The position numbers were made by a program, and so were the translations under genes. This document shows, one piece after another, positions 4,861 through 11,052 of a DNA stretch of 12,833 nt (positions are counted from its first letter, which is position 1; every line of letters starts with the position of its first letter). The DNA is from a virus. Lineage: Duplodnaviria > Heunggongvirae > Uroviricota > Caudoviricetes. The notes below the pieces were generated by a model. It ran no database searches. It was not told where the DNA came from and was given only the letters and a program-made list of their open reading frames with translations. The stretch spans positions 1 to 12,833 of the IMG/VR virus record IMGVR_UViG_3300029248_000207; one strand, written 5' to 3'.

Positions 4861-5223
4861 GGGGCTGATTCTGGATTCGACGGGATTTGCGAAACCCAAG
4901 GTGCATGCCGAGGGGCGGTTGGCCTCGTAAAAAGCCGCAAAAAATAGTCGCAAACGACGAAAACTACGCTTTAGCAGCTTAATAACCTGCTTAGAGCCCT
5001 CTCTCCCTAGCCTCCGCTCTTAGGACGGGGATCAAGAGAGGTCAAACCCAAAAGAGATCGCGTGGAAGCCCTGCCTGGGGTTGAAGCGTTAAAACTTAAT
5101 CAGGCTAGTTTGTTAGTGGCGTGTCCGTCCGCAGCTGGCAAGCGAATGTAAAGACTGACTAAGCATGTAGTACCGAGGATGTAGGAATTTCGGACGCGGG
5201 TTCAACTCCCGCCAGCTCCACCA
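4861..5223 (+). ncRNA. ssrA: tmRNA (SsrA), 363 nt
   Basis: Starts GGGGCTGATTCTGGATTCGACGGG, ends GCCAGCTCCACCA. Internal tag reading frame at 4950..4982 encodes ANDENYALAA followed by a stop. tRNA-like 3' end (GGTTCAACTCCCGCC). Confidence 0.95.
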
Positions 5224-5406: not shown

Positions 5407-6612
5407 ATGGCGCGCATCACACGCCCCCTCACTAACAACGAGATCCTTAAAGCTAAACCCCGAGAAAAAGATTTCACTCTGCATGATGGGGACGGCCTGT
5501 TCTTACTCGTGAAAACATCTGGTAAAAAGCTCTGGCGCTTCCGATACCAACGTCCAGTAAGTAATAGCCGAACTAACCTGAGTCTCGGCTCATACCCTGC
5601 CCTTACACTCGCAGCAGCTCGTCAGATACGCGACCAATATTTGGCTACGCTCGCGCAGGGGATGGATCCGCAACAGCAACAAGAGCAAGCATCAGAGCAA
5701 CGTCAGATTGAGCTGGATAGCATTTTCTCAACTGTGGCCTCCAACTGGTTCAAAATGAAGAGCAAAAGCGTCACAGAGGACTACGCGAAGGATATTTGGC
5801 GTTCTCTAGATAAAGACGTATTCCCAGCAATAGGCGCGATACCTGTTCAGGAGATTAAGGCCAGAACGATAGTTGAAGCATTGGAACCAATCAAAGCACG
5901 CGGCGCATTAGAGACTGTTCGTCGCCTGGTCCAGCGCATTAACGAAATAATGATTTACGCAGTCAACACCGGNNNNNNNNNNNNNNNNNNNNNNNNNNNN
6001 NNATCAGGTGTTGGAATGGCATTTGAGAAACCCAAAAAGCAGAACATGCCCACGCTACGACCAGAAGAATTACCTAAGCTGATGCGTTCTCTGGTCATGT
6101 CGAATCTGTCTGTTTCGACTCGATGTCTTATTGAGTGGCAGCTCCTGACCCTAGTGCGCCCTTCTGAGGCTTCTGGTGCTCGGTGGGTCGAGATCGATCT
6201 CGATGCCAAACTCTGGACGATTCCCGCCGAACGAATGAAGGCTAAGCGTGAACACATTGTCCCTTTGTCACCTCAGGCTTTAGATATTTTGGAAGTAATG
6301 AAGCCAATCAGCGCTCATCGTGAACATATTTTCCCTAGTAGAAATGATCCAAAGCGGCCGATGAATAGTCAGACTGCTAATGCTGCTTTAAAACGTATAG
6401 GTTATGGTGGAAAATTAGTTGCACATGGTTTACGTTCAATAGCCAGTACAGCTCTCAACGAATCTAATTTTAATTCTGATGTGATTGAGTCTGCGCTGGC
6501 ACACACAGATAAGAATGAGGTTAGGAAAGCGTACAATCGGTCCATTTATTTGAAACAAAGAGTTGAGCTAATGGACTGGTGGGGTAATTTTGTTATGATT
6601 ACTAATAGATGA
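5407..6612 (+). CDS. intA: P4-family tyrosine integrase (IntA-like)
   Basis: 401-aa ORF next to ssrA; N-terminal arm-binding-type domain and C-terminal catalytic region with HGLRSIA and a terminal Tyr region (KAYNRS). A 30-nt N-run at 5973..6002 is in frame (10 unknown codons). Confidence 0.9.
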   Translation: MARITRPLTNNEILKAKPREKDFTLHDGDGLFLLVKTSGKKLWRFRYQRPVSNSRTNLSLGSYPALTLAAARQIRDQYLATLAQGMDPQQQQEQASEQRQIELDSIFSTVASNWFKMKSKSVTEDYAKDIWRSLDKDVFPAIGAIPVQEIKARTIVEALEPIKARGALETVRRLVQRINEIMIYAVNTXXXXXXXXXXXSGVGMAFEKPKKQNMPTLRPEELPKLMRSLVMSNLSVSTRCLIEWQLLTLVRPSEASGARWVEIDLDAKLWTIPAERMKAKREHIVPLSPQALDILEVMKPISAHREHIFPSRNDPKRPMNSQTANAALKRIGYGGKLVAHGLRSIASTALNESNFNSDVIESALAHTDKNEVRKAYNRSIYLKQRVELMDWWGNFVMITNR

Positions 6613-6625
6613 TAAAGGACTGCAC

Positions 6626-8068
6626 ATGAGCACAGTAAAAAATATTGATACCGTTTCATCAAACTTTAACATTTCGCCATCAATTCTTGATCAACTTGAT
6701 GTTGTTGATGTTTTATTAGAGTCAGATACGTTGCTTTTCATTGACCCTATGCTCCTCCCTGAAAGTAAGCATCCTGAAATGAAAGTGGATGCTGATAAGA
6801 AATACATAGATACTTTCACAAGTATCATTAAATTACTTAAAGCATCTAAGGTTCAGAATGATAATGATGTTGCTTGGAAGGCAGCCAAAAAGTTATTTTC
6901 ATTTTCCGAAATAGGATGGACATGTTTGGGTTATGGCTCATCAGCCAAAGGCTCAGGATTCGGGCCACACCTTGTGAACACAACAATGAATACTGCCTAT
7001 CAAATTATCAACATGGATATTGATGATCCTGACTTATTTATGGTCATGTCGTTATTTGAAGAAGGTATTGGGGCTGATAGAATTAGTGACATGACTACAA
7101 ATATAATATTTGAGTCCTTAGTGAAATTCTCAGAAAGAGTTAATCAAACCCTTCAAATCCCGACAAAAGAATTTTCTTTTAAAGGGAAAAAGTACATTGC
7201 CCCTCATAATCCATTAACAGATAAACCATTAATATTAGTTCCTAAAGATGTTGTCCGTGATTTGCCTATATCCACTGACTGGAGCGGTGCAGTCAGTACA
7301 ATGAAAGAAAACACGGACCTACGTGACAGAATTAATACCAACATTGGTAAACTGCTCGCATCAATGACCCAAAAAGAAAAAGCTGAAGCCAAGCGACGAG
7401 CTTTAGAGAAAAAAGAATATTTTGAAGACCTCCTAGAATTAATAAAAGAAGTAGAAAAAGAGCCTTACGATTTTAAAGCTGATAAGAATGGTGAATTATT
7501 TTGGTCAAGACTTGTATCTTCAATAGATAAAAAATACCCTTTCAATCTTTCTAAGTTTAATAAAAAACTAACCTTAGATGATGTAGAAAATTTGGTTGAT
7601 GAGATATTAACCCAATTCAAAGATCTAATTGAAAACAAAGGTCTATGGAAGGAAATGTGGGCAGATGATAAAAAACCAAGAAAAGAAAAAGCGGCTCAAC
7701 GTTTACTTTTTGCAGTAGCTTATTCATATTGCAAAGCCAATAACTTAGACATTAGCCCTGAGGCTGACTCTGGTAATGGACCTGTTGACTTCAAAGTCTC
7801 GCAAGGATTCGAGCAGAAAGTTTTAGTTGAAGTTAAGTTATCATCCAATGGTAAATTACTGCACGGATATGAAAAGCAATTAGAAATTTATAGAAATGGT
7901 GATGATACAGATCGAGCATTTTTCGTAATAGTTGATATCGGTCATTTAGGAGAAAAATACCAAAAGGTCCAGCAGGCTAGAATTGCAGCAGAAAATGAAG
8001 GTTTAAGAGCCTCAAAGATTATTCATATTGATGCACAACAAAAAGACTCTGCGAGCATTCGTATCTAG
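6626..8068 (+). CDS. Cargo protein of unknown function with a C-terminal PD-(D/E)xK nuclease-like domain; candidate anti-phage defence gene
   Basis: 480-aa ORF, uninterrupted and AT-rich compared with its neighbours; RBS-like aaggac upstream. C-terminal motifs: GPVDF (Asp codon at 7787..7789), VEVK (Glu at 7829..7831, Lys at 7835..7837), then QLEIY (QxxxY, as in RecB/Cas4-type nucleases). The N-terminal ~350 aa are unrecognised, with a Gly-rich patch (GYGSSAKGSGFG) and a charged coiled-coil-like stretch. It lies between int and cos/psu. Confidence 0.8.
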   Translation: MSTVKNIDTVSSNFNISPSILDQLDVVDVLLESDTLLFIDPMLLPESKHPEMKVDADKKYIDTFTSIIKLLKASKVQNDNDVAWKAAKKLFSFSEIGWTCLGYGSSAKGSGFGPHLVNTTMNTAYQIINMDIDDPDLFMVMSLFEEGIGADRISDMTTNIIFESLVKFSERVNQTLQIPTKEFSFKGKKYIAPHNPLTDKPLILVPKDVVRDLPISTDWSGAVSTMKENTDLRDRINTNIGKLLASMTQKEKAEAKRRALEKKEYFEDLLELIKEVEKEPYDFKADKNGELFWSRLVSSIDKKYPFNLSKFNKKLTLDDVENLVDEILTQFKDLIENKGLWKEMWADDKKPRKEKAAQRLLFAVAYSYCKANNLDISPEADSGNGPVDFKVSQGFEQKVLVEVKLSSNGKLLHGYEKQLEIYRNGDDTDRAFFVIVDIGHLGEKYQKVQQARIAAENEGLRASKIIHIDAQQKDSASIRI

Positions 8069-8073
8069 ATTAA

Positions 8074-8112
8074 TAAAGGCTCAACTATCACTTAGTTGAG
8101 CCTTTGTTATTT
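8074..8112 (+). terminator. Rho-independent terminator after the cargo ORF
   Basis: AAAGGCTCAACTAtcacTTAGTTGAGCCTTTgttatttt: about 13-bp stem followed by a T-rich tail, 6 nt after the stop codon. Confidence 0.7.
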
Positions 8113-8148: not shown

Positions 8149-8167
8149 AATGCTCTCCCCGCCACGC
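8149..8167. other. cos site (P2/186/P4-type 19-nt cohesive-end sequence)
   Basis: ATGCTCTCCCCGCCACGCC. From memory this is one mismatch from the reverse complement of the phage 186 cohesive end (GGCGTGGCGGGGAAAGCAT) and close to the P2/P4 one (GGCGAGGCGGGGAAAGCAC). It sits between the cargo gene and psu, where cos lies in integrated P4. Confidence 0.65.
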
Positions 8168-8340
8168 CTGCCCGCTTAAGAGGTCACTTTTAATGCAGGT
8201 GCATGAACGGCCTCAGGCCGCACCGGTACTGGTGTTGCGTGGGATAAAAAATACGGGGATTTTCATGCAAAGCCATGCACCTTATGGATGCATGGCTTTT
8301 TCGGGAAAAATAGCGGAATTTTCGGGGATTTTTTTGCGTG

Positions 8341-8911
8341 CTAGCGTGCGGCCAGTTCTGCACGTCGGCGGGTGTAAATCAGGTTCTGTGCTGGGGTGAA
8401 TTTCTGGCGATTATCATCCCGCGAAGCCGCATCAGGCCTGAATCCGATGCCCGTTAAAATATCGCTGTCCTGCGCGGAATAATTAATTTTTTCACCTGCG
8501 GCCAGCCACACCGACAGGGCTTCACGCAGATAATCAACCGAGTGCTGCATGGCGCTCTGTTTTACTGCGGGAAGCTGTTCGTTATACCCCATCAGCTCAG
8601 GTGCCAGCGTGGCGGCCAGCTCCGCGCCGTGCTGCTGCATAAAGTCATGGAGCCGGTTGCGGATGCTGATGTGCTGCACCTCCTCATGTGAGCGGATATN
8701 NNNNNNNNNCGGCGGCCTGATTAATTTCCCACTTTTTCACGTCGATATTGTCGCGCAAATCCTGCATTCTGAGCGGAATTTGTTCGTCACCGGCAAGGAG
8801 CTGTTCACGGTATTCCCGTTCAAGGTCTGCCAGTTCGGCTTTACGTTTCAGCCAGGTGTTTTTGTTCGTCTGACAGGCCTCAAAGGCCTGCTGTATGGTC
8901 ACAGTGGTCAC
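8341..8911 (-). CDS. psu: Polarity suppression protein Psu (capsid decoration / Rho antagonist), interrupted by a 10-nt N-run
   Basis: Two minus-strand ORFs (8684..8911, 75 aa; 8341..8679, 112 aa) together read like P4 Psu (MTTVTIQQAFEACQTNKN...EINQAA [gap] IRSHEEVQHISIRNRLHDFMQQHG...). GTG start at 8911, preceded by aggagag. The N-run at 8700..8709 separates the halves, which are in different frames as written. Confidence 0.8.
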
Positions 8912-10713: not shown

Positions 10714-10840
10714 TGATGGCCGCTCAGCAAAAAGCCCCTTTTTCTGGCTTGCTTCTTTTCGCCGTTTCCAGGTATAGTTTTCCCGCTGTCGCAAAATCGG
10801 CAGCCGGGCGTAGGAACCCGTGTAATTCACAGGCGACAAC

Positions 10841-10865
10841 AGACGCGCCATGCGTCTTTTTTTAC
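10841..10865 (+). terminator. Rho-independent terminator inside the immunity-like region
   Basis: AGACGCgccatGCGTCTtttttttt: 6-bp GC-rich stem plus T8, about 25 nt downstream of the first GCGTAGGAAC element. Confidence 0.55.
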
Positions 10866-10995
10866 GTCGTTGCTCAGGCACACCCATTTTTCGGGCTGTA
10901 GCCCCTGTCAGATAATGGTGGTCCGGGCGGGGCAGCTTTCGGGCTGGCCGGTATTCTGTGAAGCCGGTATTCCTACCCCCGTTCGGGTCACCACC
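10866..10995 (+). ncRNA. Candidate P4 CI-like immunity RNA region (contains the seqB-like element); ends undetermined
   Basis: No plausible ORF here. CCGGTATTCCTAC (10964..10976) is complementary to GTAGGAACTCCGG (11003..11015; 11 of 13) and partly to GCGTAGGAAC (10808..10817). CCGGTATTC is also duplicated at 10948..10956. This matches the seqA/seqB/seqC logic of P4 immunity. Confidence 0.3.
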
Positions 10996-11052
10996 CATGA
11001 GCGTAGGAACTCCGGTGGTGGCAATAACCGCTATTCACAGGAGGTTGCCATC

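What the first reader, a model, noticed from the sequence alone, without database searches (positions are those of the whole stretch)
6626..8068. Compositionally foreign 480-aa cargo ORF with a PD-(D/E)xK nuclease domain in the P4 int-cos/psu hotspot: candidate undescribed anti-phage protein
The ORF lies between the P4-type integrase and the cos/psu end, the locus where P4-like satellites are known to carry interchangeable anti-phage systems. It is strikingly AT-rich compared with int, psu and the core genes (by eye roughly one-third G+C against about one-half), so it looks recently acquired. Its C-terminus has the full catalytic signature of a PD-(D/E)xK nuclease with a RecB/Cas4-like QxxxY motif: GPVD(388)F, VE(402)VK(404), Q(418)LEIY. 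The first ~350 residues match nothing I recognise. It has its own RBS and terminator and no partner gene, so it would be a single-gene system. A nuclease fused to an unknown sensor domain is a common defence architecture (for example Shedu-like proteins), but I cannot assign it to a named family from sequence alone.
Basis: partly seen in the sequence, partly recalled or inferred. Interest (0 to 1): 0.88.

Follow-up and report, generated by a model that had tools for sequence, protein, structure and literature searches.

The report
Uncharacterised single-gene nuclease in P4 hotspot
A 480-residue gene carried as foreign cargo in the defence hotspot of a P4-like phage satellite joins a restriction-enzyme-like DNA-cutting domain to a large, highly conserved domain of unknown fold; it belongs to a widespread untested family (Pfam DUF8370/DUF8371) and is a good but unproven candidate for a new one-protein anti-phage system.

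Summary
ORF 6626-8068 (+) is intact. It has 35% G+C, against 46% for int and 55% for psu-sid. It lies between a P4-type integrase and cos/psu, with an RBS and a strong terminator.

The protein belongs to Pfam DUF8370+DUF8371. This is a large family of uniform length, about 480 aa, found in at least ten phyla. No functional study turned up in the searchable literature.

There is no conserved partner gene. Homologues occur in three other settings:
- as single-ORF integron cassettes in Vibrio
- at the edge of a mobilizable island in E. coli
- beside AbiL, Menshen-like, Shedu, type I RM and Schlafen-helicase genes

The protein is not GapS1 or Shedu. Only its N-domain weakly matches the unvalidated PADLOC candidate PDC-M36A.

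Best reading: a one-protein, gated defence nuclease. The defence role rests on context alone. The N-domain looks more like a ligand-binding or catalytic module than a variable phage sensor. It is a worthwhile candidate of an expected kind.

The parts
6626..8068 (+). Cargo ORF, 480 aa (Pfam DUF8370 + DUF8371), with stop codon
   Evidence: dN/dS about 0.05 against the island copy and the Serratia copy
6653..7267 (+). N-terminal core domain (aa ~10-214, DUF8370). Mostly helical with a beta-hairpin at aa 180-195. Near-invariant D34, D40, E95, G102, Y103, G109, G149, D151, D155, P206, P214.
7268..7675 (+). Linker predicted disordered (aa 215-246, though W219, N229 and R233 are conserved), followed by a helical middle region (aa 249-345) with the conserved Y281-D-x-x-x-D286 motif
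7676..8035 (+). C-terminal PD-(D/E)xK nuclease domain (aa ~351-470, DUF8371). Helix 354-371 (E354, Q358), strand with E379, strand with D388, strand with E402-x-K404, helix with Q418-x-x-x-Y422.
8036..8065 (+). Conserved C-terminal tail (aa 471-480; S475-A476-S477, R479)
6615..6619 (+). Shine-Dalgarno-like AAGGA, 6 nt upstream of the ATG. The DNA shared with the copy on the E. coli mobilizable island starts at 6609.
8071..8109 (+). Intrinsic terminator-like hairpin (17 pairs) followed by a T-run
5407..6612 (+). P4-type tyrosine integrase, the upstream boundary of the hotspot. It contains a masked N run at 5973-6002.
8150..8168 (-). cos-like 19-mer, the downstream boundary of the hotspot
   Evidence: The reference cos sequence was recalled from memory; 3 mismatches, and 1 of 200 shuffles reached a match.
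8341..8911 (-). psu (polarity suppression protein). The ORF call is split only by a masked N run at 8700-8709.

Best explanation
The ORF encodes a self-contained, one-protein defence nuclease carried as swappable cargo in the defence hotspot of a P4-like satellite. The C-terminal PD-(D/E)xK domain is the effector and would cut DNA using D388, E402 and K404, with Q418 and Y422 assisting. The N-terminal DUF8370 domain and the helical middle region would keep it inactive until infection supplies a cue. Cleavage of phage DNA, or of all DNA in the cell, would then stop the phage, either directly or through growth arrest.

Shown here:
- the nuclease fold and its conserved catalytic residues
- strong purifying selection
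- single-gene autonomy
- mobility between satellites, integron cassettes and other islands
- repeated co-location with known defence genes

Inferred, not shown:
- that it protects against phage
- that it is gated
- what the cue is
- what it cuts

The N-domain is as conserved as the nuclease and has an invariant acidic, glycine-rich core. I therefore think the cue is more likely a conserved small ligand, metal, nucleotide or nucleic-acid feature than a fast-evolving phage protein.
For: Fold and residues:
- D388, E402, K404, Q418, Y422, E354 and E379 are conserved at >=90% in 100-133 representatives that share 30-53% identity with the query.

The gene is real and constrained: dN/dS is about 0.05.

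It works alone:
- The largest neighbour family occurs in only 5 of 80 loci.
- The Vibrio homologue is a single-ORF cassette bounded by attC-like repeats.
- DNA shared with the copy on the E. coli mobilizable island covers only 6609-8072.

Hotspot residence:
- The near-identical protein was found on 23 contigs; in all 10 places shown it directly follows a P4-type int, with psu downstream wherever the contig extends that far.
- Alleles 53-93% identical lie next to P4-type integrases in Yersinia, Pectobacterium, Brenneria, Pantoea and IMG/VR satellites.
- The literature establishes this locus as a reservoir of antiviral systems. Six of eight randomly chosen unknown P4 hotspot loci protected against phage (PMC9122126, PMC13586616).

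Company:
- AbiLi with DUF3226, and an NsnA/PD-T4-2_A-like gene, share the hotspot with homologues.
- Shedu, type I S subunits, RES, MazG with a Schlafen helicase (PDC-S41), mad5 and PIN_8 are among the immediate neighbours.
- A reverse transcriptase gene adjoining an SMC/AAA ATPase gene lies about 2.6 kb from the Serratia copy.

Foreign origin: gene G+C is below that of the flanks in 70 of 78 loci.

Related candidate: 97 of 100 diverse members hit the PADLOC candidate PDC-M36A.

Precedent: GapS1 is a single protein whose C-terminal PD-(D/E)xK domain is needed for defence. A capsid protein triggers it and it causes dormancy (bioRxiv 10.1101/2023.03.28.534373).
Against: There are no functional data for any member. 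No paper mentions DUF8370 or PDC-M36, and every source names the protein 'hypothetical'.

The defence association is qualitative. I could not compute an enrichment statistic. Some copies sit among ordinary genes (Aeromonas and Shewanella), and several immediate neighbours are housekeeping genes.

The N-domain's high conservation and net negative charge are unusual for a sensor of phage proteins or for a DNA reader.

Gating is assumed only because an ungated nuclease with no immunity partner should be toxic.

Two of the eight unknown P4 loci tested in PMC13586616 gave no protection. That paper's supplements are not held, so I cannot exclude that this gene was one of the two.
Confidence: 0.5

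Rival explanations
1. It is a direct restriction enzyme without a methylase, in the manner of Type IV enzymes. The N-terminal and middle regions would recognise a chemical or structural feature of invading DNA, such as modified bases, free ends or replication intermediates. The nuclease would cut that DNA directly, with no abortive response.
For: It is a single gene with no methyltransferase or immunity partner. The best fold matches are Type II restriction endonucleases. Some members weakly hit DpnII-MboI and NucS_C. A recogniser of a chemically constant target would explain the strong conservation of the N-domain.
Confidence: 0.2
2. It is not phage defence. It would be a nuclease that serves the mobile elements themselves, for example in competition against rival plasmids, satellites or integrative elements, in post-segregational addiction, or in a DNA-processing step.
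For: It travels on many kinds of mobile element: P4-like satellites, integron cassettes, a mobilizable island next to a relaxase gene, and an element carrying TrbL and TrfA. The defence assignment rests on context alone.
Against: No partner antitoxin or immunity gene is conserved. The gene is not tied to any one type of element or to any conserved element function. It occupies the position where satellites exchange antiviral systems (PMC9122126, PMC13586616). Its co-cargo genes are defence genes.
Confidence: 0.12
3. The N-terminal DUF8370 domain is itself an enzyme that acts on a nucleotide or a nucleic acid. The protein would then have two activities, or the PD-(D/E)xK domain would mainly bind or target rather than degrade in bulk.
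For: D34, D40, E95, D151 and D155 are invariant or nearly so, along with glycine-rich loops at G102, G109-S-G-x-G113 and G149. The N-domain is as conserved as the nuclease core. Its fold has no solved counterpart.
Against: No sequence or fold match to any enzyme family supports this. The nuclease catalytic residues are themselves almost invariant, so that domain is very likely active. Only a rare variant, P0268, has lost them.
Confidence: 0.08

Closest known systems
GapS1 / GAPS1 (Vibrio parahaemolyticus VPaI-6; NCBIfam NF047931 antiphage_GapS1)
   Same: It is a single-protein system with a large uncharacterised N-terminal part and a C-terminal PD-(D/E)xK domain that is required for defence. 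It is carried as island cargo. An E. coli homologue sits directly after a prophage integrase near ypjA, a position comparable to this gene's.
   Different: No detectable homology: hhalign probability is 1.3%. Our protein does not hit NF047931, while a true E. coli homologue scores 401.6 bits. The lengths differ (508-532 aa in the homologues examined, against a uniform ~480 aa) and so does the catalytic spacing (D313...K328 against D388...K404). The trigger and outcome are known for GapS1 (capsid protein, dormancy) and unknown here.
Shedu (SduA, DUF4263 / Pfam SduA_C)
   Same: It is a single-gene defence built as an N-terminal regulatory or sensing region plus a C-terminal PD-(D/E)xK nuclease. 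Shedu genes are among the immediate neighbours of family members.
   Different: The query and about 100 diverse members hit neither Pfam SduA_C nor the PADLOC SduA models. From my own knowledge, Shedu N-termini vary across the family, whereas this N-domain is highly conserved.
PADLOC candidate PDC-M36 (protein A, PDLC04597)
   Same: The N-terminal domain is homologous: aa 21-214 align with profile positions 18-214, E 9.6e-14. Of 100 diverse family members, 97 hit it.
   Different: The match covers less than half of the 457-position profile and is weak (49 bits). PDC-M36 is listed as a multi-gene candidate, while this family has no conserved partner. PDC-M36 is unvalidated, and no paper mentions it.
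Nuclease effector domains of CBASS, type III CRISPR and STAND systems (Cap4, NucC, Can2, EruA C-terminus)
   Different: The protein has no SAVED, CARF or NTPase sensor, and no cyclase or CRISPR partner is conserved nearby.
Type II/IV restriction endonucleases (BamHI, OkrAI, BstYI, BglII)
   Different: There is no cognate methyltransferase, sequence identity is 5-11%, and this protein has an extra 350-residue N-terminal region of unknown fold.

Membership tests
Pfam DUF8370 (PF28123) + DUF8371 (PF28130) | Matches to both Pfam models over the full length | tested here: met
   Precomputed Pfam hits are recorded for the >=90% cluster representative, which shows ~100% identity in the search table but is not an exact match, and for the gene in 10 loci. 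RefSeq names the 81% homologue 'DUF8370 family protein'. The local Pfam copy lacks these models, so the direct scan returned nothing. Partial proteins covering aa 1-294 carry only PF28123, so that model covers the N part.
PD-(D/E)xK nuclease superfamily | Restriction-endonuclease-like alpha-beta-beta-beta-alpha-beta core | tested here: met
PD-(D/E)xK nuclease superfamily | Conserved catalytic D ... (D/E)xK | tested here: met
   D388 and E402 are conserved at >=95% in 133 representatives and at >=90% in a 100-member alignment that includes atypical variants. K404 is invariant in the 100-member alignment.
PD-(D/E)xK nuclease superfamily | Metal-dependent nuclease activity | not testable with these tools
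   This needs purified protein.
RecB/Cas4-like branch (QxxxY) | QxxxY motif in the helix after the (D/E)xK strand, and matches to RecB/Cas4 family models | tested here: inconclusive
   Q418 and Y422 are conserved at >=95%. No Pfam PDDEXK_1 or Cas4 hit was found. A few members hit only PDDEXK_9, DpnII-MboI or NucS_C, weakly. UniRef labels two members 'NO VEIN C-terminal domain-containing'.
GapS1 | Match to NCBIfam NF047931 at or above its 320-bit cut-off, or profile homology to a validated homologue | tested here: not met
   NCBIfam gave no hit even at E<=10. The positive control, WP_032260687.1, scores 401.6 bits. hhalign probability is 1.3%.
Shedu | DUF4263 / SduA_C nuclease domain | tested here: not met
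   Neither Pfam nor PADLOC SduA models hit the query or the 100 members.
PADLOC PDC-M36 | Full-length match to protein A, plus the partner gene or genes of a multi-gene system | tested here: not met
   Only aa 21-214 match, at 49 bits. No neighbour is conserved in 80 loci.
P4-like satellite hotspot cargo | Located between the P4-type integrase and cos/psu of a P4-like element | tested here: met
   The order is int 5407-6612, ORF, cos-like 8150-8168, then psu, delta and sid. C4 RNA and isrK are present, and the element is inserted at ssrA. Ten other loci show the same arrangement.
Type IV (modification-dependent) restriction enzyme | A recognised modified-DNA reader domain and modification-dependent cleavage | tested here: inconclusive
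Toxin-antitoxin module | A conserved adjacent antitoxin or immunity gene | tested here: not met
   The largest neighbour family occurs in 5 of 80 loci. The Vibrio cassette holds a single ORF.

The most novel reading that the evidence does not exclude
DUF8370/DUF8371 would be a widespread one-protein immune nuclease. It has 764 clusters at 50% identity with E<=1e-30 and occurs in at least ten bacterial phyla. Its N-terminal domain would be a new fold that senses infection through a conserved ligand, metal or nucleotide pocket, or that carries a second catalytic activity. This would be a sensing principle different from the variable protein sensors of Shedu-like and GapS1-like systems.
Probability: 0.25. 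Interest if true: 0.8.

Novelty: new variant of a known kind. Interest (0 to 1): 0.58.

Why it matters
If the gene protects against phage, it would give a function to a large family that is known only by DUF numbers and is spread across phyla and across several kinds of mobile element. It would also add a compact, 1.4-kb, partner-free system to the defence catalogue.

Its 350-residue N-terminal region has no counterpart among solved structures and is unusually conserved. It could therefore reveal a new way of sensing infection or of gating a nuclease. A partner-free gated nuclease of this size might also be a useful tool.

If the gene does not protect, the result would be a useful counter-example to the working assumption that everything in the P4 psu-int hotspot is antiviral.

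Tried and rejected
- **Direct scans of the query.** Pfam gave no hit; that copy lacks PF28123 and PF28130. NCBIfam gave only a sub-threshold EruA match.
- **Sequence searches of the PDB.** The single sequence and two profiles gave nothing meaningful. The CFA/I fimbrial-subunit hit (E 5e-6) comes from a trimeric fusion chain that repeats a 38-residue stretch. It drops to E about 1 for single subunits, so I treat it as chance.
- **Foldseek against the PDB with the full-length model.** Nothing reached E<=1e-3.
- **tblastn against 50,697 phage records.** No match. The family is not found in deposited phage genomes; it occurs in satellites, prophage-adjacent regions and islands.
- **Literature.** Searches for DUF8370, PDC-M36 and EruA found nothing relevant. 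The Domainator paper, the integron-cassette screening preprint and Rousset 2022 describe no system of this architecture. The supplements of PMC13586616 are not held.
- **GapS1 membership.** I considered it because of the shared architecture and rejected it.
- **T6SS effector or toxin.** I considered this because GMT islands mix both kinds of cargo. I rejected it because no immunity gene is conserved and I saw no delivery domains.
- **An apparent psu frameshift in the window.** It is an artefact of a masked N run.
- **Structure prediction of the N-domain.** It succeeded with cropped database sequences.
- **Tyrosine recombinases near the gene.** They lie within 10 kb in only 12 of 80 loci by phmmer. 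This is modest and was not controlled against a background rate.
Full report
**1. What is in the sequence**

The window is an E. coli-type chromosomal stretch: nadK, recN, bamE, yfjF, ratA, smpB and ssrA. A P4-like satellite follows, inserted at ssrA. A locus that aligns at 99.6-99.7% nucleotide identity across the window (99.9% over the ORF) exists in E. coli KMi029.

ARAGORN and Rfam place the tmRNA at 4861-5223. Rfam also finds the P4 immunity-region RNAs, isrK at 10785-10862 and C4 at 10911-10998.

The ORF runs from 6626 to 8068 on the plus strand and encodes 480 aa. It starts 13 nt after the stop codon of the P4-type integrase (5407-6612). AAGGA lies 6 nt upstream of the ATG. A hairpin of 17 pairs plus a T-run follows at 8071-8109. 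A cos-like 19-mer lies at 8150-8168 (the reference sequence is from my memory). After it come psu, delta and sid on the minus strand.

The ORF has G+C 0.351 and third-position G+C 0.283. This compares with 0.456 for int, 0.552 for psu-sid and 0.495 for the host flank.

A dedicated promoter is not shown. Promoter-like hits are no more frequent than in shuffled sequence.

**2. What the protein is**

Family. The protein belongs to a family that Pfam now lists as DUF8370 (PF28123, the N part) plus DUF8371 (PF28130, the C part). It also matches PHROG 30194, of unknown function, over its full length.

The family is large and uniform:
- An exhaustive profile search of 1.84 billion representatives found 2905 clusters at E<=1e-3 and 764 at E<=1e-30.
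- Most of the 150 best hits are 460-490 aa and align end to end; the shorter ones look like fragments.
- Eighty loci from one-genome-per-species data span Proteobacteria, Acidobacteriota, Bacteroidota, Planctomycetota, Verrucomicrobiota, Nitrospirota, Chloroflexota, Patescibacteria, Melainabacteria and Actinomycetota.

Selection. Against the E. coli island copy and a Serratia copy (about 87% aa identity), dN/dS is about 0.05, so the gene is under strong purifying selection. These enterobacterial copies all keep G+C at 0.33-0.35.

Across 133 representatives that share 30-53% identity with the query, E354, Q358, E379, D388, E402, K404, Q418 and Y422 are conserved at 95% or more. Some members weakly hit PDDEXK_9, DpnII-MboI, NucS_C or LmuA. 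The query weakly matches the C-terminal region of the NACHT antiphage protein EruA. The nuclease assignment is well supported.

Three features of this region stand out:
- It is as conserved as the nuclease core.
- It is net acidic: -7 in the query, with a family median of -2.
- D34, D40, E95, D151 and D155 are invariant or nearly so, together with glycine-rich loops at G102-Y103, G109-S-G-x-G113 and G149.

Residues 215-246 are predicted disordered in both models although several of them are conserved. The last residues of the protein (S475-A-S477, R479) are conserved as well. The most variable stretches are the hairpin at aa 180-200, aa 261-280, aa 301-320 and aa 441-460.

**3. Context**

Satellites. 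The near-identical protein was found on 23 contigs. In all 10 places shown it directly follows a P4-type integrase, with psu downstream wherever the contig extends that far. The cluster at 90% identity or more spans E. coli, Salmonella (one variant on 841 contigs), Klebsiella, Enterobacter and Citrobacter.

More divergent alleles, 53-93% identical, sit directly after P4-type integrases in Yersinia, Pectobacterium, Brenneria, an unclassified Enterobacteriaceae genome (L027) and IMG/VR satellites; the Pantoea copy (L028) shares the downstream cos-side flank. One 55% allele lies next to an integrase 84% identical to ours. This pattern indicates repeated swapping at the hotspot.

Other settings:
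- In twelve E. coli genomes an 81% copy sits at the edge of an integrative mobilizable element, next to its relaxase gene. DNA shared with our locus covers only 6609-8072, which is the RBS plus the ORF.
- In Vibrio a 59% homologue is a single-ORF integron cassette. It is bounded by attC-like ~137-nt repeats in an array that also holds acetyltransferases, ParE/Phd, SLATT, DUF4365 and a NACHT gene.
- In Pseudoduganella it lies beside MazG, a Schlafen-type helicase and a STAND-like ATPase, on an element carrying TrbL and TrfA.
- In Serratia a reverse transcriptase gene adjoining an SMC/AAA ATPase gene lies about 2.6 kb from it.
- In E. coli MB06172 it shares the island at ssrA with AbiLi and DUF3226. 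In satellite L119 it shares the hotspot with an NsnA/PD-T4-2_A-like gene.

Survey of 80 loci. No neighbour family occurs in more than 5 loci. The immediate neighbours include Shedu, type I specificity subunits, RES, mad5 and PIN_8, but also housekeeping genes. Gene G+C is below that of the flanks in 70 of 78 loci. Some copies, in Aeromonas and Shewanella, sit among ordinary small genes.

**4. How it most likely works**

The best reading is a one-protein defence nuclease in which the C-terminal PD-(D/E)xK domain is the effector and the N-terminal and middle regions gate it.

The steps that are shown are the fold, the conserved catalytic residues, selection, autonomy as a single gene, mobility, and hotspot and defence-island residence. 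The steps that are inferred are protection, gating, the cue and the substrate.

The literature supports the prior. The psu-int locus of P4-like satellites is a reservoir of antiviral systems (PMC9122126). In a 2026 study, six of eight randomly chosen unknown P4 hotspot loci protected E. coli (PMC13586616). None of the systems named there (Crouga, Bandua, Aernus, Toga, Reve, Hailong) has this architecture. The supplements are not held, so I cannot tell whether this gene was one of the two negatives.

The N-domain's conservation and acidic pocket suggest a conserved ligand, metal or nucleotide, or a second activity, rather than a fast-evolving sensor of phage proteins. This is inference only.

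The rivals are direct Type IV-like restriction, a function serving the mobile element rather than defence, and an enzymatic N-domain.

**5. Comparison with known systems**

GapS1 is the closest functional analogue. It is a single protein whose C-terminal PD-(D/E)xK domain is needed for defence. The T7 capsid protein triggers it and it causes dormancy. An E. coli homologue sits directly after a 186-like prophage integrase near ypjA.

Membership in GapS1 was tested and fails. The NCBIfam GapS1 model scores that homologue at 401.6 bits but does not hit our protein, and hhalign gives a probability of 1.3%. Shedu models do not hit either.

The only catalogue link is a weak match confined to the N-domain, to PADLOC's unvalidated multi-gene candidate PDC-M36A. 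Of 100 diverse members, 97 share this match. No conserved partner gene exists here.

**6. Novelty and verdict**

The family is catalogued as DUFs but not characterised. The general design, a single-gene nuclease defence carried as hotspot cargo, is known. I therefore rate it a new variant of a known kind.

A specialist would not be surprised to find an unknown nuclease in the P4 hotspot. The breadth of the family, its strict single-gene autonomy and a confidently modelled, highly conserved N-domain with no structural counterpart still make it a strong experimental candidate.

Interest is 0.58, and confidence in the gated defence-nuclease reading is 0.5. The main weakness is that no functional evidence exists and no enrichment statistic was computed.

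Noticed in passing
window 5973-6002 and 8700-8709: There are two masked runs of N, 30 nt inside int and 10 nt inside psu. The second splits the psu ORF call into 8341-8679 and 8684-8911 and looks like a frameshift. Both genes are intact in the near-identical KMi029 locus.
   Followed up: yes
window 10785-10862 and 10911-10998: Rfam finds isrK (74.6 bits) and C4 antisense RNA (78.3 bits) on the plus strand. This is the P4-type RNA immunity region and confirms what kind of satellite this is.
   Followed up: partly
window 8193-8399 (+): A 68-aa ORF lies in the cos-psu spacer. Gene callers call it in several near-identical loci, but it has no Pfam hit. By eye, an inverted repeat followed by a T-run lies around 8266-8300 (AAGCCATGCA...TGCATGGCTTTTT). 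Its function is unknown and it may not be a real gene.
   Followed up: no
L011 and L116; L113: In some genomes a 186/P2-like prophage integrase lies directly upstream of the P4-like int and this ORF, so helper-type prophage and satellite sit in tandem. In E. coli Ecol_AZ147 a GapS1 homologue occupies the slot right after a 186-like integrase next to ypjA.
   Followed up: partly
proteins P0270 and P0268: One family member (678 aa) carries an extra C-terminal CHAT protease-like domain. Another (575 aa) has lost the equivalents of D388 and E402 and has a different C-terminal extension.
   Followed up: partly
window 8036-8065 (aa 471-480): The extreme C-terminal tail (S-A-S-K/I-R) is conserved at 85-95% or more across 100-133 diverse members, and in the family as a whole it is net basic. 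It could be an autoinhibitory, oligomerisation or active-site element.
   Followed up: no
L114 6525-8233; L119 3988-5100: Other copies of the hotspot hold this family together with recognised defence genes: AbiLi plus a DUF3226 protein in E. coli MB06172, and an NsnA/PD-T4-2_A-like protein in an IMG/VR P4-like satellite.
   Followed up: yes
L014 5000-12500: The Vibrio superintegron array has ten or eleven copies of a ~137-nt attC-like repeat. Nearly every cassette holds one ORF, including SLATT_5, DUF4365, ParE/Phd and several acetyltransferases.
   Followed up: partly
L001 16967-17467 (beyond the window's right end): A DUF6998 gene lies between the satellite's primase (alpha) gene and ypjA, at the far end of the element. 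It recurs in all the near-identical satellites that extend that far and may be a second cargo position.
   Followed up: no
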